Positions 12,668 through 18,940 are shown, counted from the stretch's first letter. The stretch is 47,554 nucleotides of DNA from Escherichia coli (GCF_003334385.1 NZ_QOWN01000034.1), one strand, 5' to 3'. The notes: generated by a model not told the origin, from the sequence alone. Translations and numbers: made by a program.

Positions 12668-15130
12668 TTAGACTCCTAACTTCCATGAGAGGGTGCGTAG
12701 CAGATCGGCAAAGACACCGGCAGCTGTAACGTCATTACCCGCACCGTATCCGCGCAGGACCAGCGGCAGTGGCTGATAATAGTGGCTATAGAAGGCCAAT
12801 GCGTTTTCGCCGTTTTTCACTTTGAACAGCGGATCGTTGCCATCCACTTCAGCAATCTTCACGCGGCAGACGCCATCTTCATCAATATTGCCAACATAGC
12901 GCAAAACTTTTCCTTCATCACGGGCCTTCGCCACGCGCGCGGCAAAGAGATCGTCGAGCTGTGACAGATTCGCCATAAAAGTCGCAACATCGCCTTCCGC
13001 GTTAAACTCTGCGGGCAGCACAGATTCGATTTCGATATCCGCCAGTTCCAGTGATCGTCCTGTTTCACGGGCGAGAATCAACAGCTTGCGCGCCACATCC
13101 ATACCAGAAAGATCATCTCGCGGGTCCGGTTCGGTATAGCCCATTTCTCTTGCCAGCGTGGTGGCCTCGGAGAAGCTCATCCCTTCGTCTAACTTACCGA
13201 AGATGAAAGAAAGCGAACCAGAAAGAATGCCAGAGAATTTCATCAATTCATCACCCGCGTTGAGCAGGTTTTGCAAGTTCTCAATGACCGGCAACCCCGC
13301 ACCGACGTTGGTGTCATAAAGGAATTTACGCCGTGATTTTTCCGCCGCGTAACGCAGCTGATGGTAGTAATCCATCGACGAGGTGTTGGCCTTTTTGTTC
13401 GGGGTCACCACATGGAAACCTTCGCGCAGGAAGTCGGCATATTGATCCGCCACTGCCTGGCTGGAGGTGCAGTCAACAATGACCGGGTTTAGCAGATGAT
13501 ATTCTTTCACGAGGCGAATTAAGCGCCCGAGATTAAACGGCTCTTTGGCTTGCGCCAGTTCTTCCTGCCAGTTTTCCAGGTTTAGGCCATGCACATTGGT
13601 AAGCAGAGCCTTCGAGTTGGCAACGCCGCAGACACGTAAGTCGATATGTTTATTCTTCAGCCAGCTTTGTTGACGCTTCAGTTGCTCCAGCAGCGCACCG
13701 CCAACGCCACCGACGCCAATCACAAATACTTCGATAACCTGATCGGTATTGAACAGCATCTGATGAGTAACGCGCACGCCAGTGGTCGCATCATCGTTAT
13801 TTACCACGACAGAGATTGAGCGTTCAGAAGATCCCTGAGCAATGGCGACAATGTTGATATTGGCGCGGGCCAGCGCGGCAAAGAATTTCGCCGAGATCCC
13901 ACGCAAGGTGCGCATACCATCACCTACCACCGAGATAATGGCCAGCCGTTCCGTCACCGCCAGCGGCTCCAGTAAGCCTTCTTTCAGTTCCAGGTAGAAC
14001 TCTTCCTGCATTGCCCGTTCAGCTCGCACACAGTCGCTTTGCGGAACGCAGAAACTGATACTGTATTCGGAAGATGATTGCGTAATCAGCACCACGGAAA
14101 TACGGGCGCGTGACATCGCTGCAAACACGCGCGCCGCCATGCCGACCATTCCTTTCATCCCCGGGCCGGAAACGCTGAACATTGCCATGTTATTCAGATT
14201 GGAAATGCCCTTGACCGGTAATTCGTCTTCATCACGGCTGGCACCAATGAGCGTACCTGGTGCTTGAGGATTTCCGGTATTTTTAATCAGGCAAGGGATC
14301 TGGAACTGGGCGATGGGGGTAATGGTGCGGGGGTGAAGAACTTTAGCGCCGAAGTAGGAAAGCTCCATCGCTTCCTGGTAGGACATCGACTTCAACAACC
14401 TCGCATCGGGCACCTGACGCGGGTCGCAGGTATAGACCCCGTCAACGTCCGTCCAAATCTCGCAACAATCGGCGCGTAAACAGGCAGCCAGCACCGCCGC
14501 GGAGTAGTCGGAACCGTTGCGTCCAAGCACCACCAGTTCGCCTTTTTCATTACCGGCGGTGAAACCTGCCATCAGCACCATGTGATCAGCCGGAATACGA
14601 CTTGCCGCAATACGGCGGGTGGACTCAGCAATATCGACGGTAGATTCGAGGTAATGCCCCACTGCCAGCAGTTTTTCGACCGGATCGATAACGGTAACGT
14701 TGTGACCACGCGCTTCTAACACGCCGGCCATAATGGCGATCGACATTTTCTCGCCACGGCAAATCAGCGCAGCGTTGATGCTATCCGGGCACTGCCCCAA
14801 CAAACTAATGCCATGCAGGACATGTTTTATTTGGGCAAATTCCTGGTCGACGAAAGTTTTCAGTTGCGCCAGCGGGAATCCCGGCTGGGCGGCGGTGAGT
14901 CCTGTCAGAAGTTCGGCAAAAATACGTTCGGCATCGCTGATATTGGGTAAAGCATCCTGGCCGCTAATGGTTTTTTCAATCATCGCCACCAGGTGGTTGG
15001 TGATTTTGGCGGGGGCAGAGAGGACGGTGGCCACCTGCCCCTGCCTGGCATTGCTTTCCAGAATATCGGCAACCCGCAGAAAACGTTCTGCATTTGCCAC
15101 TGATGTACCGCCGAACTTCAACACTCGCAT
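12668..15130 (-). CDS. thrA: Bifunctional aspartokinase I / homoserine dehydrogenase I, 820 aa
   Basis: [50 protein letters not shown]... Confidence 0.98.
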
Positions 15131-15154
15131 GGTTGTTACCTCGTTACCTTTGGT

Positions 15155-15192
15155 CGAAAAAAAAAGCCCGCACTGTCAGGTGCGGGCTTTTT
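15155..15192 (-). terminator. thr leader attenuator terminator
   Basis: AAAGCCCGCACCTGACAGTGCGGGCTTTTTTTTT on the minus strand, directly after the thrL stop and before thrA. Confidence 0.85.
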
Positions 15193-15211
15193 TCTGTGTT
15201 TCCTGTACGCG

Positions 15212-15280
<69 letters not shown>

Positions 15281-15490
15281 TGTTGTGTACTCTGTAATTT
15301 TTATCTGTCTGTGCGCTATGCCTATATTGGTTAAAGTATTTAGTGACCTAAGTCAATAAAATTTTAATTTACTCACGGCAGGTAACCAGTTCAGAAGCTG
15401 CTGTCAGAGACTCTTTTTTTAATCCACACAGAGACATATTGCCCATTGCAGTCAGAATGAAAAGCTGAAAAATACTTACTAAGGCGTTTT

Positions 15491-16177
15491 TTATTTGGTG
15501 ATATTTTTTTCAATATCATGCAGCAAACGGTGCAACATTGCCGTGTCTCGCTGCTCTAAAAGCCCCAGACGTTGTTGTAACCAGTCGACCAGTTTTGTGT
15601 CATCTGCCACTGCCAGAGTCGTCAGCAATGCCATGACTCGTTCGCGTAAAGCTTGCAGTTGATGTTGGTCTGCCGTTGTGTCACTTTTCGTCGGTTGTTG
15701 TATTAATGTTGCTAATTGATAGCAATAGACCATCACTGCCTGCCCCAGATTGAGCGAAGGATAATCCGCCACCATCGGCACACCAGTAAGAACGTCAGCC
15801 AACGCTAACTCTTCGTTAGTCAGCCCGGAATCTTCGCGACCAAACACCAGCGCGGCATGGCTCATCCATGAAGATTTTTCCTCTAACAGCGGCACCAGTT
15901 CTACTGGCGTTGCGTAGTAATGATATTTCGCCCGACTGCGCGCAGTGGTGGCGACAGTGAAATCGACATCGTGTAACGATTCAACCAGTGTCGGGAAAAC
16001 TTTAATATTATCAATAATATCACCAGATCCATGTGCGACCCAGCGAGTGGCTGGCTCCAGATGTGCCTGACTATCGACAATCCGCAGTTCGCTAAACCCC
16101 ATCGTTTTCATTGCCCGCGCCGCTGCCCCAATATTTTCTGCTCTGGCGGGTGCGACCAGAATAATCGTTATACGCAT
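15491..16177 (-). CDS. yjtD: SpoU/TrmH-family RNA 2'-O-methyltransferase YjtD (LasT), 228 aa
   Basis: MRITIILVAPARAENIGAAARAMKTMGFSELRIVDS...; start trimmed to the internal ATG. Confidence 0.88.
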   Translation of the reverse strand: MRITIILVAPARAENIGAAARAMKTMGFSELRIVDSQAHLEPATRWVAHGSGDIIDNIKVFPTLVESLHDVDFTVATTARSRAKYHYYATPVELVPLLEEKSSWMSHAALVFGREDSGLTNEELALADVLTGVPMVADYPSLNLGQAVMVYCYQLATLIQQPTKSDTTADQHQLQALRERVMALLTTLAVADDTKLVDWLQQRLGLLEQRDTAMLHRLLHDIEKNITK

Positions 16178-16576
16178 ATTGCCACTCTTCTTGACCAAAT
16201 GACCGCGAACAGGGTGATCACTGTCAACTTATTACGCGGTGCGAATTTACAAATCCTTAACGTAAGTCGCAGAAAAAGCCCTTTACTTAGCTTAAAAAAG
16301 GCTAAACTATTTCCTGACTGTACTAACGGTTGAATTGTTAAAAAATGCTACATATCCTTCTGTTTACTTAGGATAATTTTATAAAAAATAAATCTCGACA
16401 ATTGGATTCACCACGTTTATTAGTTGTATGATGCAACTAGTTGGATTATTAAAATAATGTGACGAAAGCTAGCATTTAGATACGATGATTTCATCAAACT
16501 GTTAACGTGCTACAATTGAACTTGATATATGTCAACGAAGCGTAGTTTTATTGGGTGTCCGGCCCCTCTTAGCCTG

Positions 16577-16717
16577 TTATGTTGCTGTTAAAATGGTTAG
16601 GATGACAGCCGTTTTTGACACTGTCGGGTCCTGAGGGAAAGTACCCACGACCAAGCTAATGATGTTGTTGACGTTGATGGAAAGTGCATCAAGAACGCAA
16701 TTACGTACTTTAGTCAT
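16577..16717 (-). CDS. yjjY: Small uncharacterised ORF YjjY, 46 aa
   Basis: ATG and TAA found on the minus strand at exactly the positions predicted by co-linear mapping onto K-12 yjjY; no functional evidence from sequence. Confidence 0.4.
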   Translation of the reverse strand: MTKVRNCVLDALSINVNNIISLVVGTFPQDPTVSKTAVILTILTAT

Positions 16718-16812
16718 GTTACGCCGATCATGTTAATTTGCAGCATGCATCAGGCAGGTCAGGGACTTTTGTACTTCCTGTTTCGATTTAGTTGGCAATT
16801 TAGGTAGCAAAC

Positions 16813-17529
16813 ATGCAGACCCCGCACATTCTTATCGTTGAAGACGAGTTGGTAACACGCAACACGTTGAAAAGTATTTTCGAAGCGGAAGGCTATGATG
16901 TTTTCGAAGCGACAGATGGCGCGGAAATGCATCAGATCCTCTCTGAATATGACATCAACCTGGTGATCATGGATATCAATCTGCCGGGTAAGAACGGTCT
17001 TCTGTTAGCGCGTGAACTGCGCGAGCAGGCGAATGTTGCGTTGATGTTCCTGACTGGCCGTGACAACGAAGTCGATAAAATTCTCGGCCTCGAAATCGGT
17101 GCAGATGACTACATCACCAAACCGTTCAACCCGCGTGAACTGACTATTCGTGCACGCAACCTGCTGTCCCGTACCATGAATCTGGGTACTGTCAGCGAAG
17201 AACGTCGTAGCGTTGAAAGCTACAAGTTCAATGGTTGGGAACTGGACATCAACAGCCGTTCGTTGATCGGCCCTGATGGCGAGCAGTACAAGCTGCCGCG
17301 CAGCGAGTTCCGCGCCATGCTTCACTTCTGTGAAAACCCAGGCAAAATTCAGTCCCGTGCTGAACTGCTGAAGAAAATGACCGGCCGTGAGCTGAAACCA
17401 CACGACCGTACTGTAGACGTGACGATCCGCCGTATTCGTAAACATTTCGAATCTACGCCGGATACGCCGGAAATCATCGCCACCATCCACGGTGAAGGTT
17501 ATCGCTTCTGCGGTGATCTGGAAGATTAA
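16813..17529 (+). CDS. arcA: Aerobic respiration control response regulator ArcA, 238 aa
   Basis: [43 protein letters not shown]...; OmpR-family receiver plus winged-helix domains. Confidence 0.98.
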
Positions 17530-17544
17530 TCGGCGTTACCACCG

Positions 17545-17583
17545 TCAAAAAAAATGGCGCTTTTTAGCGCCGTTTTTTTTTTC
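17545..17583. terminator. Bidirectional terminator between convergent arcA and creD
   Basis: A8-GGCGC-TTTTTA-GCGCC-T11: hairpin flanked by an A-run and a T-run. Confidence 0.75.
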
Positions 17584-17587
17584 AACC

Positions 17588-18940
17588 TTATTTCCAGATA
17601 CGTAATTCATCGTCCGTTGTAACTTCTTTATTGGCTTTCATTTTCGGCAGTGAAAACGCATACCAGTCGATATTACGGGTCACAAACATCATTCCGGCCA
17701 GTGCCACCACCAGCACACTGGTTCCCAACAACAGCGCGCTATCGGCAGAGTTGAGTAGTCCCCACATCACACCATCCAGCAACAACAGCGCGAGGGTAAA
17801 CAACATGCTGTTGCGCCAGCCTTTCAATACCGCCTGCAAATAAATACCGTTCATTAACGCCCCAATCAGACTGGCGATTATCCATGCCCCGGTAAAACCG
17901 GTATGTTCAGAAAGCGCCAGCAAGAGCAAATAAAACATCACTAATGAAAGCCCCACCAGTAAATATTGCATTGGGTGTAAACGTTGCGCGGTGAGCGTTT
18001 CAAAAACAAAGAACGCCATAAAAGTCAGCGCAATCAGCAGAATAGCGTACTTAGTCGCCCGGTCAGTTAATTGGTATTGATCGGCTGGCGTCGTCACTGC
18101 GACGCTAAACGCGGGGAAGTTTTCCCAGCCGGTATCATTGCCTGAAGCAAAACGCTCACCGAGATTATTAGCAAACCAGCTGCTTTGCCATTGCGCCTGA
18201 AAACCTGACTCGCTAACTTCCCGTTTGGCTGGTAGAAAATCACCTAAAAAACTGGGATGCGGCCAGTTGCTGGTTAAGGTCATTTCGCTATTACGCCCGG
18301 CAGGCACCACAGAAAGATCGCCGGTACCGCTTAAATTCAGTGCCATATTCAGCTGCAGGTTCTGCTTCCGCCAGTCCCCTTCGGGTAAAGGGATATGCAC
18401 GCCCTGCCCGCCTTGCTCTAACCCGGTGCCGGGTTCAATGGTCAGCGCCGTTCCGTTAACTTCAGGCGCTTTCACCACACCAATACCACGCGCATCCCCG
18501 ACGCTAATCACAATAAATGGCTTGCCAAAGGTGATATTTGGCGCGTCGAGTTCGCTAAGACGCGAAACATCGAAATCGGCTTTTAGCGTTAAATCACTGT
18601 GCCAGACCTGACCGGTATAAATCCCTATCTTGCGTTCTTCCACGTTCTGATTGCCATCAACCATCAATGACTCAGGTAACCAAAAATGGATAAAACTTCG
18701 TTTCCGCTCCACGGTTTTATCCTCTTCCTGTACCGTATAAAGCTCGGTCACAGGAATAGCGATAAGCGGCCCAACGAGTTTTTGCGGCCCGCTGGTACTT
18801 TGGCGAATCGCATCTTCCACATCGCTACGGTAATCGGCACGTTCGACAATCACCTGCCGAATCAGCATTATCGGAATCAACAACAGCAATACGGCACCAA
18901 ACAGGGTGGTCATTTTCCAGAACAGGGGGGATTTCAACAT
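17588..18940 (-). CDS. creD: Inner membrane protein CreD, 450 aa
   Basis: MLKSPLFWKMTTLFGAVLLLLIPIM...; last gene of the cre operon. Confidence 0.93.
   Translation of the reverse strand: MLKSPLFWKMTTLFGAVLLLLIPIMLIRQVIVERADYRSDVEDAIRQSTSGPQKLVGPLIAIPVTELYTVQEEDKTVERKRSFIHFWLPESLMVDGNQNVEERKIGIYTGQVWHSDLTLKADFDVSRLSELDAPNITFGKPFIVISVGDARGIGVVKAPEVNGTALTIEPGTGLEQGGQGVHIPLPEGDWRKQNLQLNMALNLSGTGDLSVVPAGRNSEMTLTSNWPHPSFLGDFLPAKREVSESGFQAQWQSSWFANNLGERFASGNDTGWENFPAFSVAVTTPADQYQLTDRATKYAILLIALTFMAFFVFETLTAQRLHPMQYLLVGLSLVMFYLLLLALSEHTGFTGAWIIASLIGALMNGIYLQAVLKGWRNSMLFTLALLLLDGVMWGLLNSADSALLLGTSVLVVALAGMMFVTRNIDWYAFSLPKMKANKEVTTDDELRIWK

What the first reader, a model, noticed from the sequence alone, without database searches (positions are those of the whole stretch)
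16199..16812. Long arcA upstream region containing the small ORF yjjY
There are 635 bp between yjtD and arcA with no large ORF. The 46-codon yjjY frame sits on the strand opposite to arcA, inside what is likely the arcA 5' leader and multi-promoter region. Its status as a real protein, versus a regulatory or antisense element, is unclear from sequence.
Basis: partly seen in the sequence, partly recalled or inferred. Interest (0 to 1): 0.2.

Follow-up and report, generated by a model that had tools for sequence, protein, structure and literature searches.

The report
yjjY ORF inside conserved arcA leader
The small annotated gene yjjY shows no sign of selection for a protein; it lies antisense inside a very conserved promoter and folded 5' leader of the oxygen-response regulator gene arcA, so its apparent conservation is most likely a by-product.

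Summary
This is the E. coli yjtD-arcA spacer, 635 bp at 16178-16812, with the 46-codon yjjY ORF at 16577-16717 on the minus strand.

An ORF this long appears in 57-83% of shuffled spacers. K-12 also annotates a second small ORF here, ytjE (16348-16401, minus strand), which the finding missed.

The spacer has two parts. The distal half diverges between genera. The arcA-proximal ~325 bp (16487-16812) is about 95% identical across Enterobacteriaceae.

yjjY shows no coding signature:
- Substitutions fall 14/15/8 on codon positions, with 9 synonymous and 28 non-synonymous. arcA in the same genomes gives 39/12/329.
- The frame is shifted in Buttiauxella, Kluyvera, Pseudescherichia and Cedecea/Dryocola.
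- It is stopped in Serratia and has no start codon in Hafnia, Pantoea, Winslowiella and Dickeya.

The conserved block instead holds an extended -10 promoter, an FNR-like box, two ArcA-type TGTTA repeats and a leader. Four helices in the leader have moderate covariation support and no Rfam match. Published work reports overlapping sense and antisense transcripts, and phenotypes of yjjY insertions that act through arcA.

Verdict: a known locus. yjjY is most likely not a conserved protein gene. The structured arcA leader is the part worth testing.

The parts
16178..16812 (.). yjtD-arcA spacer, 635 bp. The distal part (16178-16486) is poorly conserved between genera. The proximal part (16487-16812) is about 95% identical across Enterobacteriaceae.
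16577..16717 (-). yjjY ORF: 46 codons plus stop, ATG at 16717-16715. Annotated as 'protein YjjY'. There is no Shine-Dalgarno better than GGCG upstream.
   Evidence: No coding signature. Frame lost in many lineages.
16348..16401 (-). ytjE (K-12 b4824): 17 codons plus stop, TTG start. A published translated small ORF upstream of yjtD.
16508..16516 (+). Extended -10-like promoter element TGCTACAAT. Conservation begins about 20 bp upstream of it. It would start arcA transcripts near 16523 (inferred; no start site was mapped here).
   Evidence: Sequence read directly. Conserved as far as Photorhabdus.
16522..16535 (+). FNR/CRP-type box TTGATATATGTCAA, matching 9 of 10 bases of TTGAT-N4-ATCAA.
   Evidence: Only match in the 47.5-kb window. 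Kept in Photorhabdus and Vibrio arcA upstream regions. FNR control of arcA is reported in PMC1805755 and PMC7567609.
16550..16573 (.). GC-rich spacer of fixed length but variable sequence (20 of 24 columns vary) between the FNR box and the ArcA repeats. A published IS186 insertion maps to 16562.
16575..16590 (+). Two ArcA-type direct repeats, TGTTA-N6-TGTTA, in 11-bp phase. They overlap the last codons of yjjY.
   Evidence: One match in the window against 0.03 expected. Conserved in all Enterobacterales leaders and in Vibrio.
16623..16651 (+). Helix H0 of the arcA leader: GUCGGGU / ACCC(AC)GAC. The pair 16629-16643 is U-A, U.G or G-C in different lineages.
16674..16692 (+). Helix H1: hairpin UUGAUG-GAAAGUG-CAUCAA. 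The closing pair changes from G-C to A-U in the Pantoea lineages.
16704..16775 (+). Helices H2 and H3, forming a three-tier stem. The outer helix is (C)GUAC/GUAC (16704-08 with 16771-75). The inner helix is AGUC/GACU (16712-15 with 16764-67). The apical hairpin is 16723-32 with 16744-55. The complement of the yjjY start codon lies at the inner helix.
   Evidence: Same fold as the minimum-energy structure in every lineage. Pair counts. z-score -2.56. The covariance model gives a unique hit in the window.
16768..16798 (-). Minus-strand sigma-70 promoter TTGCCA-19-TACAAA, with the -35 at 16798-16793 and the -10 at 16773-16768. It is the likely source of the yjjY-strand transcript.
   Evidence: Listed for yjjY in the RNA polymerase SELEX paper PMC3946193. 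I located the motif in the sequence. It fits the 5' edge (about 16772) of the double-stranded RNA cluster in PMC7373196 (the coordinate conversion is mine).
16776..16812 (+). Near-invariant, mostly unpaired stretch that ends in the arcA ribosome-binding site (AGG 16802-16804). The arcA ATG is at 16813.

Best explanation
The arcA-proximal ~325 bp of the spacer (16487-16812) is the regulatory core of arcA. In order, it holds:
- an extended -10 promoter (16508-16516);
- an FNR box (16522-16535);
- a spacer of fixed length (16550-16573);
- two ArcA-type repeats (16575-16590), presumably for autoregulation;
- a leader of about 220 nt that folds into at least four helices (H0-H3) on the arcA-sense RNA, and ends in an invariant, largely unpaired ribosome-binding region.

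yjjY is an open frame on the opposite strand of this leader. Its apparent 83-96% amino-acid conservation is a by-product of selection on the nucleotides (promoter, operator and RNA structure), not of selection on a protein.

A minus-strand promoter inside the leader (TTGCCA-19-TACAAA) makes a transcript that runs through yjjY toward ytjE and yjtD. That transcript pairs with long arcA leaders. So deletions or insertions 'in yjjY' act by changing arcA expression.

Shown here: nucleotide-level constraint, absence of a coding signature, loss of the frame in relatives, conserved motifs, and helices with some compensatory change.

Taken from papers: FNR and ArcA control, double-stranded RNA, RNA polymerase binding, and insertion phenotypes.

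Inferred: which promoter yields the conserved leader, and that the fold controls arcA translation or mRNA stability.
For: 1. Two-part conservation. Conservation starts sharply near 16487 and runs past both ends of the ORF.

2. Substitution pattern. In 49 distinct Enterobacteriaceae leaders, the yjjY frame has 9 synonymous and 28 non-synonymous substitutions. The synonymous fraction is 0.24, against 0.28 expected, and the codon positions take 14/15/8. arcA in the same genomes has 332 synonymous and 48 non-synonymous, with positions 39/12/329. 88% of arcA third-position columns vary, against 23% of all yjjY columns.

3. Frame not kept.
- 11 of the 49 close leaders are frameshifted after about codon 30. 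These are Buttiauxella, Kluyvera, Pseudescherichia, Cedecea/Dryocola and one Enterobacter contig.
- Serratia has a stop after codon 20.
- Hafnia, Pantoea, Winslowiella, Dickeya and Photorhabdus lack the start codon.
- The nucleotide motifs inside the 'ORF' persist in most of these lineages (not in Photorhabdus).

4. ORF length is not above chance.

5. Motifs. The FNR-like box and the TGTTA-N6-TGTTA repeat are each unique in the window.

6. RNA structure.
- H2/H3: 77.6% of cells pair, against 25-36% when the partners are slid. The covariation score is 0.124 against 0.09 or less, and 0 of 500 shuffles reach it.
- H0/H1: 90.6% pair against 38-48%. The covariation score is 0.204 against 0.133 or less.
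- The H2 architecture is the minimum-energy fold in most lineages, with unrelated apical hairpins; a few Pantoea-type sequences do not recover it.
- One lineage keeps the closing helices around a 93-nt insertion.
- G.U cells outnumber A.C cells 34 to 6 in H0/H1 and 11 to 0 in H2/H3. This favours the arcA-sense strand.
- In Enterobacteriaceae the plus strand is 4-9 kcal/mol more stable than the minus strand.

7. Literature.
- Double-stranded RNA covers the whole yjjY CDS (PMC7373196).
- A minus-strand promoter is listed for yjjY (PMC3946193).
- yjjY insertions and the FRT scar act through arcA (PMC12956098).
- Adaptive IS insertions in the arcA regulatory region accompany higher anaerobic arcA transcription in evolved clones (PMC5094792).
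Against: - The 46-codon frame is intact in 38 of the 49 close leaders, and also in Yersinia with the same length. NCBI has an equivalog model for it. Frame retention in close relatives is expected from nucleotide conservation alone, but a lineage-restricted translated peptide is not excluded.
- No ribosome-profiling or tagging data for yjjY could be found or read.
- Support for the RNA structure rests on few independent compensatory events. The structures were derived from these same sequences.
- The whole 251-nt leader is no more stable than shuffles (z -0.49).
- In Pantoea the minus strand of the H2 segment folds better.
- No transcription start site was examined here, so the assignment of the conserved block to one leader is inferred.
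Confidence: 0.7

Rival explanations
1. yjjY encodes a real 46-residue protein of Enterobacteriaceae. Its conservation reflects selection on the protein, overlaid on the arcA leader.
For: The ORF is intact in most Escherichia, Salmonella, Klebsiella, Enterobacter, Citrobacter, Raoultella and Siccibacter sequences, and in Yersinia. It matches NCBIfam NF052365 with 96.5 bits against a cutoff of 70. A minus-strand promoter lies upstream, and the strand is transcribed.
Against: There is no excess of synonymous or third-position change: 9 synonymous to 28 non-synonymous, and positions 14/15/8. arcA gives 332 to 48. Frameshifts occur in four genera of the same family, stops in Serratia, and no start codon in Hafnia or Erwiniaceae, although the DNA is kept. 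ORF length is within chance. The Shine-Dalgarno sequence is weak. Published deletion and scar phenotypes are attributed to arcA.
Confidence: 0.12
2. The functional product of the minus strand is a non-coding cis-antisense RNA, or the long 5' leader of ytjE-yjtD. It pairs with the arcA leader and tunes arcA through RNase III cleavage or transcriptional interference. The yjjY frame is incidental.
For: p19-captured RNase III products cover about 16351-16772, which is the whole yjjY CDS (coordinate conversion is mine). The promoter TTGCCA-19-TACAAA at 16798-16768 lies in the most conserved part of the leader. ytjE further downstream on the same strand is translated. Orientation-biased transposon insertions in yjjY are enriched.
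Against: No regulatory effect of the antisense transcript has been shown. Many divergent gene pairs give such double-stranded RNA without a known function (PMC7373196). The helices with G.U pairs fit the sense strand. A transcript starting near 16761 would lack the 3' halves of H2. This explanation is compatible with the best explanation rather than exclusive of it.
Confidence: 0.3
3. The conservation is entirely at the DNA level: several promoters on both strands plus binding sites for FNR, ArcA, CpxR and other factors. The apparent helices are palindromic or repeated protein-binding sites, not RNA structure.
For: Multiple arcA promoters and FNR, ArcA and CpxR inputs are reported. H1 is a perfect palindrome made of TTGAT/ATCAA-like half-sites, and GTAC is self-complementary. 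The whole leader is not unusually stable.
Against: The inner helix of H2 pairs non-palindromic strands about 50 nt apart and covaries (A-U 41, G-C 14). The apical hairpin is replaced by unrelated hairpins or by a 93-nt insertion while the closing helices are kept. G.U cells greatly outnumber A.C cells. About 220 bp of near-invariant DNA is more than the known sites explain.
Confidence: 0.2

Closest known systems
Long structured 5' leaders of global regulator genes in enterobacteria, such as the rpoS, csgD and flhDC leaders (from general knowledge)
   Same: The leader is more than 200 nt long and upstream of a global regulator. It is highly conserved and has conserved stems. In Erwinia, arcA is reported to be activated post-transcriptionally by the sRNA ArcZ at a site about 50 nt upstream of the ATG (PMC6895013).
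   Different: No E. coli sRNA partner or protein ligand is known. My ArcZ duplex test was no better than background. The ribosome-binding site is not obviously sequestered. The leader is not in Rfam.
Divergent genes with overlapping 5' transcripts that yield RNase III-cleaved double-stranded RNA (p19 capture, PMC7373196); 'excludon'-like arrangements
   Same: Promoters on both strands lie inside each other's leaders, and double-stranded RNA was detected across yjjY (cluster S-383).
   Different: No regulatory outcome has been demonstrated here. The overlapped 'gene' is probably not a gene.
Small ORFs that are annotated or translated but not conserved (Stringer et al. preprint 10.1101/2021.07.02.450978; ytjE in the same spacer)
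   Same: The frame is short, has a weak or atypical start and shows no protein-level constraint.
   Different: Unlike typical non-conserved small ORFs, the DNA under yjjY is among the most conserved non-coding DNA of the region. This is why homology-based annotation (NCBIfam NF052365) propagates it.
FNR- and ArcA-controlled promoters (TTGAT-N4-ATCAA box; TGTTA direct repeats 11 bp apart; Park et al. 2013, PMC3798270)
   Same: Both motifs are present, unique in the window and conserved as far as Vibrio.
   Different: Their positions relative to a mapped start site were not tested. Only two repeats are in phase; a third lies off phase.

Membership tests
Protein-coding gene / YjjY family protein (NCBIfam NF052365) | Match to the family profile above its curated cutoff | tested here: met
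   96.5 bits against a cutoff of 70, E = 7.8e-28. This says only that the sequence resembles other annotated YjjY sequences.
Protein-coding gene / YjjY family protein (NCBIfam NF052365) | Reading frame kept in relatives that keep the DNA | tested here: not met
   11 of 49 close leaders are frameshifted (Buttiauxella, Kluyvera, Pseudescherichia, Cedecea/Dryocola, one Enterobacter contig). Serratia has a stop after codon 20. 22 of 27 distant leaders have no start codon. arcA has no indel in the same genomes.
Protein-coding gene / YjjY family protein (NCBIfam NF052365) | Excess of synonymous and third-position substitutions | tested here: not met
   9 synonymous and 28 non-synonymous (0.24 observed against 0.28 expected), with codon positions 14/15/8. 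The arcA control gives 332 and 48, with positions 39/12/329.
Protein-coding gene / YjjY family protein (NCBIfam NF052365) | ORF longer than expected by chance | tested here: not met
   57-83% of shuffles contain an ORF of at least 46 codons.
Protein-coding gene / YjjY family protein (NCBIfam NF052365) | Ribosome-binding site and evidence of translation | not testable with these tools
   Only GGCG lies upstream of the ATG. No ribosome-profiling or tagging result for yjjY was found in the papers held.
FNR-dependent promoter | TTGAT-N4-ATCAA box | tested here: met
   TTGATATATGTCAA at 16522-16535 is the only match in the window. It is conserved in Photorhabdus and Vibrio.
FNR-dependent promoter | Box centred near -41.5 or -61.5 from a mapped start site; FNR-dependent expression | not testable with these tools
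   No start-site data were available. FNR dependence comes from papers (PMC1805755 citing Compan and Touati 1994; PMC7567609).
ArcA-P operator | At least two TGTTA-like direct repeats with 11-bp spacing | tested here: met
   16575-16590: one match against 0.03 expected. A third in-phase repeat is absent.
Any curated Rfam family | Covariance-model match | tested here: not met
   No match in 16178-16812 even at E <= 1.
Structured cis-regulatory 5' leader RNA | Helices supported by compensatory change | tested here: met
   paired cells 78-91% against 25-48% when slid, and 0 of 500 shuffles reach the covariation score. Pairs with two or more Watson-Crick types occur at 16629-16643, 16679-16687 and 16712-16767, and at two or three pairs in H3. 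Caveats: few independent events, and the structure was derived from these same sequences.
Structured cis-regulatory 5' leader RNA | Folding more stable than shuffled sequence | tested here: inconclusive
   The 72-nt H2/H3 element has z = -2.56. The 251-nt leader has z = -0.49.
Structured cis-regulatory 5' leader RNA | Effect on expression of the downstream gene | not testable with these tools
   Needs reporter fusions. The only indirect evidence is the scar and insertion phenotypes in PMC12956098.
cis-antisense transcript pair | Promoter on the opposite strand within the leader, and double-stranded RNA in vivo | not testable with these tools
   I found the motif TTGCCA-19-TACAAA at 16798-16768. 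RNA polymerase binding and double-stranded RNA are reported in PMC3946193 and PMC7373196.

The most novel reading that the evidence does not exclude
The ~220-nt arcA leader (about 16590-16812) is an undescribed cis-regulatory RNA conserved across several families of Enterobacterales: Enterobacteriaceae, Yersiniaceae, Hafniaceae, Erwiniaceae and Pectobacteriaceae. Its core is a three-tier stem (16704-16775) whose closing helices persist while the apical hairpin is replaced. It would set arcA translation or mRNA stability, possibly together with the antisense transcript that starts inside it or with ribosomes translating short upstream frames. 'YjjY' would be a shadow of this RNA and should be removed from protein catalogues.
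Probability: 0.4. Interest if true: 0.55.

Novelty: already known. Interest (0 to 1): 0.33.

Why it matters
ArcA is one of the main redox regulators of enteric bacteria. Its upstream region is a repeated target of adaptive mutations in gut and laboratory evolution. These mutations are often scored as 'yjjY' hits.

Showing that yjjY carries no protein-level constraint redirects the reading of such hits to arcA control. It also argues against propagating the YjjY protein family.

The analysis exposes a very conserved, folded arcA leader with no curated RNA family. Post-transcriptional control of arcA therefore becomes a concrete, testable question.

Tried and rejected
- Rfam scan of 15000-18000 at E <= 1. 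Only the thr leader (15157-15276) passed, and nothing matched in the spacer.
- Simple promoter and terminator scan. It gave one minus-strand hit (TTAACA-18-TAAAGT, 16736-16707), which is fewer than in the shuffles, so it is uninformative.
- Genome-contig scan with ArcA. Only Citrobacter, Photorhabdus, Vibrio, Shewanella and Haemophilus loci were useful. Diversity came instead from exact-protein look-ups and from one metagenome DNA-pattern scan.
- RNAalifold on the full 311-nt leader. It found no compensatory pairs because most columns are invariant. The helices had to be tested on segment alignments that include other families.
- Whole-leader folding energy. It is not different from shuffles on either strand.
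- Hairpin GACAG/CUGUC (16605-16625). The T/C and A/T changes are not compensated, so I dropped it.
- ArcZ pairing with the E. coli leader. The best duplex is no better than for random windows (fraction at least as good 0.72).
- Coding signature of the plus-strand upstream frames (16659-16736, 16730-16807). None was found, and the second has an in-frame TAA in one Enterobacteriaceae contig, L085.
- A third in-phase ArcA repeat. It is absent.
- Evidence for YjjY translation. Hemm et al. 2008 is not held, and the supplements of three profiling papers carry no entry.

Full report
**What is there.** The window is an E. coli chromosome read in the opposite orientation to K-12.
- thrA, thrL and yjtD (15491-16177) are on the minus strand. 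arcA (16813-17529) is on the plus strand, and creD follows on the minus strand.
- Bases 16100-16900 match 5424 of 5426 complete E. coli genomes, where they are annotated yjtD / yjjY / arcA.
- With the annotated yjtD start, the spacer is 16178-16812 = 635 bp.
- The 46-codon frame is at 16577-16717 on the minus strand and equals K-12 YjjY.
The coordinates in the finding (16199-16812) cover 614 bp, because they start after a longer TTG-initiated version of the yjtD frame.
- An ORF of this length is not remarkable. It appears in 57-83% of dinucleotide-preserving shuffles of the spacer.
- K-12 annotates a second small ORF here, ytjE (17 codons, TTG start; window 16348-16401, minus strand). It was found by ribosome profiling and validated. 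The finding did not mention it.

**The spacer has two parts.** I aligned the spacer from labelled Citrobacter, Klebsiella, Raoultella, Salmonella, Siccibacter and three further Enterobacteriaceae loci sharing a YjjY sequence named for Enterobacter soli.
- The distal half (16178-16486) is poorly conserved.
- From about 16487 to the arcA ATG the DNA is about 95% identical.
- Conservation covers all three codon positions of yjjY and runs past both ends of the ORF.
- A metagenome scan with a promoter pattern raised the set to 76 distinct leaders.
- I labelled the divergent leaders by exact look-up of their ArcA or YjtD proteins. They are Yersinia, Serratia, Hafnia, Dickeya, Pantoea, Winslowiella, Buttiauxella, Kluyvera, Pseudescherichia and Cedecea/Dryocola.

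**Is yjjY under selection as a protein?** Three tests say no.
- *Substitution pattern.* Among 49 distinct Enterobacteriaceae leaders, the yjjY frame has 9 synonymous and 28 non-synonymous substitutions. That is 0.24 synonymous against 0.28 expected from random mutation, and the codon positions take 14/15/8. None of the other five frames stands out after allowing for multiple tests.
- *Control.* In the same genomes arcA has 332 synonymous and 48 non-synonymous substitutions, with positions 39/12/329. 88% of its third-position columns vary, against 23% of all columns in yjjY. The yjjY DNA is thus constrained about as strongly as amino-acid-determining positions of arcA, but with no three-base periodicity.
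- *Frame within the family.* 37 of the 49 close leaders keep the 46-codon frame (30 with ATG, 7 with GTG). One has an in-frame 6-nt duplication. 11 are frameshifted after about codon 30: Buttiauxella, Kluyvera, Pseudescherichia, Cedecea/Dryocola and one Enterobacter contig. The indels are +1 or +2, and three of the lineages are seen in three independent contigs each.
- *Frame outside the family.* Yersinia keeps a 46-codon frame. Serratia has a stop after codon 20. Hafnia, Dickeya, Pantoea, Winslowiella and Photorhabdus have no start codon. Yet nucleotide blocks inside the 'ORF' (for example TTGATGGAAAGTGCATCAA and ACGTAC) persist in most of them.
- *Annotation.* The high amino-acid identity of YjjY homologues (83-96%) and the NCBIfam equivalog model are explained by nucleotide conservation.
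- *Start context.* The ATG has only GGCG as a possible Shine-Dalgarno sequence.
- *Translation data.* I could not find any translation data for yjjY in the papers held.

**What the conserved block contains.** Reading 5' to 3' on the arcA strand:
- An extended -10-like TGCTACAAT lies at 16508-16516.
- An FNR/CRP-type box, TTGATATATGTCAA, lies at 16522-16535. It is the only match in the 47.5-kb window.
- A GC-rich patch at 16550-16573 has a fixed length, but 20 of its 24 columns vary. A published IS186 insertion maps to 16562.
- Two ArcA-type repeats, TGTTA-N6-TGTTA, lie at 16575-16590. That is one match against 0.03 expected. A third in-phase repeat is absent.
- The leader follows and runs to the arcA ATG.
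- The promoter, FNR box and TGTTA repeats are kept in Photorhabdus. The FNR box and TGTTA repeats are kept even upstream of Vibrio arcA, but the leader is not.
- FNR activation and predicted ArcA autoregulation of arcA are in the literature (PMC1805755 citing Compan and Touati 1994; Reg-Seq PMC7567609, which also reports CpxR).
- Which promoter produces the conserved leader was not tested. The sharp onset of conservation just upstream of TGCTACAAT suggests a start near 16523 (inference).

**Folding of the leader.** The whole leader is not unusually stable (z = -0.49). RNAalifold on the near-invariant full alignment finds no compensatory pairs. Segment alignments that include other families do show structure.
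- *H2 plus H3 (16704-16775).* This is a three-tier stem. The outer helix is (C)GUAC/GUAC, the inner helix is AGUC/GACU, and the apical hairpin is 16723-32 with 16744-55.
  - In most lineages the isolated segment folds to this architecture as its minimum-energy structure; a few Pantoea-type sequences do not. The apical hairpin sequence is unrelated in Yersinia, Serratia, Hafnia, Dickeya, Pantoea and Winslowiella.
  - 77.6% of cells pair, against 25-36% when the partners are slid. The covariation score is 0.124 against 0.09 or less, and 0 of 500 shuffles reach it.
  - Pairs with several Watson-Crick types include 16712-16767 (A-U 41, G-C 14) and two pairs in H3.
  - For E. coli the element has z = -2.56, and its minimum-energy structure holds 38% of the ensemble.
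  - A covariance model built from it hits the window only at 16698-16782. It also finds sequences not used to build it, including one with a 93-nt insertion between intact closing helices. It finds nothing in the Photorhabdus, Vibrio, Shewanella or Haemophilus arcA loci.
- *H0 (16623-16651) and H1 (16674-16692).* 90.6% of cells pair, against 38-48% when slid. The covariation score is 0.204 against 0.133 or less. Pair 16629-16643 is U-A 26, G-C 11 and U.G 8. Pair 16679-16687 is G-C 42 and A-U 11.
- *Strand.* G.U cells outnumber A.C cells 34 to 6 in H0/H1 and 11 to 0 in H2/H3. In Enterobacteriaceae the plus strand of H2/H3 is 4-9 kcal/mol more stable than the minus strand. In Pantoea the reverse holds.
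- *Overall.* The arcA-sense RNA is the better candidate for the folded molecule, but support is moderate. The compensatory events are few, and the structures were derived from these same sequences.
- H0, H1 and the 5' strands of H2 lie inside the yjjY ORF. The complement of the yjjY start codon abuts the inner helix of H2.

**The minus strand.**
- An RNA polymerase SELEX study lists a constitutive promoter for yjjY, TTGCCA-19-TACAAA (PMC3946193). I located it at 16798-16793 and 16773-16768, inside the most conserved part of the leader.
- p19-captured RNase III products cover the whole yjjY CDS (cluster S-383, PMC7373196). Converted from the older K-12 coordinates, the cluster is about 16351-16772. 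The conversion is my inference, based on the labelled genes. Its edge matches a start just downstream of that promoter.
- ytjE lies further along the same strand. The yjjY-strand RNA may therefore be the long leader of ytjE-yjtD, an antisense RNA, or both.
- A transcript starting near 16761 could not form H2. This again points to the sense strand for that helix.

**Genetics in the literature.**
- Transposon insertions in yjjY are enriched in evolving cultures, mostly in the arcA-sense orientation.
- A clean deletion lowers fitness, while the FRT scar raises it. The authors conclude that the effects come from altered arcA regulation (PMC12956098).
- In the mouse gut, IS insertions in the arcA regulatory region are adaptive, and evolved clones have higher anaerobic arcA transcription. 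A 4-bp insertion between yjjY and yjtD was acquired during gut adaptation (PMC5094792, PMC7064181).
- A Salmonella preprint reports a translated short frame upstream of arcA on the arcA strand, opposite yjjY. I saw no coding signature in the plus-strand frames.

**Comparison with known systems.** The closest known kinds are:
- long structured leaders of global regulator genes;
- divergent overlapping transcripts that give double-stranded RNA;
- non-conserved small ORFs.

The region matches no Rfam family. In Erwinia the sRNA ArcZ activates arcA post-transcriptionally at a site about 50 nt upstream of the ATG (PMC6895013). My duplex test of E. coli ArcZ against this leader was no better than background.

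**Verdict.** The finding is correct, and its cautious interpretation is supported.
- The locus is already known: an annotated gene and a known multi-promoter region.
- yjjY lacks every comparative hallmark of a protein gene, and its conservation is explained by the arcA promoter and leader.
- That leader is an unusually conserved, partly covarying RNA structure that has not been curated.
- Confidence that yjjY is not a conserved protein gene and that the region is arcA regulatory DNA/RNA: about 0.7.
- Confidence that the fold itself is functional: about 0.4-0.5.

Noticed in passing
window 16348-16401 (-): ytjE (K-12 b4824): 17 codons with a TTG start. It is a ribosome-profiling-validated small ORF upstream of yjtD. 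It lies in the poorly conserved half of the spacer and was not mentioned in the finding.
   Followed up: partly
window 16768-16798 (-): The minus-strand promoter TTGCCA-19-TACAAA, listed for yjjY in an RNA polymerase SELEX study, sits in the most conserved part of the arcA leader. It overlaps the 3' GUAC of helix H2.
   Followed up: partly
window 16550-16573: A GC-rich patch between the FNR box and the ArcA repeats keeps its length in all Enterobacteriaceae, Yersinia and Serratia, but varies in 20 of 24 columns. A published IS186 insertion (K-12 4640557) maps to 16562.
   Followed up: partly
window 16659-16736 and 16730-16807 (+): Two 25-codon frames lie on the arcA strand of the leader. The second ends at TAG 16805-16807, next to the arcA ribosome-binding site. 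Neither shows a coding signature, and the second has an in-frame TAA in L085. A Salmonella preprint reports a translated short frame here.
   Followed up: partly
L206, L171, L196, L197 (Pantoea/Erwiniaceae leaders), segment homologous to window 16716-16763: The apical hairpin is AAGCGC...GCGCUUUUU, which looks like an intrinsic terminator inside the arcA leader. This feature is absent in E. coli.
   Followed up: no
L142:3958-4089 (-): This leader has a 93-nt insertion in the apical part of the H2/H3 element while both closing helices are intact. L192 has an insertion of about 40 nt further upstream in the leader.
   Followed up: partly
L087 and L088 (Salmonella enterica), homologous to window 16657: A 6-nt duplication (TAATGA) gives a 48-residue YjjY variant. 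It is the only indel of a multiple of three seen in the ORF, against at least four that are not.
   Followed up: no
L008:2700-2800 (Vibrio bivalvicida, upstream of arcA): A perfect FNR box (TTGATATAAATCAA) followed by TGTTA-N6-TGTTA is kept upstream of Vibrio arcA. The rest of the enterobacterial leader is absent.
   Followed up: partly
window 15157-15276 (-): The threonine operon leader (Rfam RF00506, 122 bits) lies upstream of thrA. This is the expected known attenuator.
   Followed up: no
window 17547-17674 (-): A weak, sub-threshold Rfam match to PrrB/RsmZ (25 bits against a gathering score of 44) lies in the arcA-creD convergent terminator region. It is most likely chance.
   Followed up: no
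window 16195-16334: All five differences between this strain and K-12 in the spacer fall in the distal half. The conserved proximal half is identical.
   Followed up: yes
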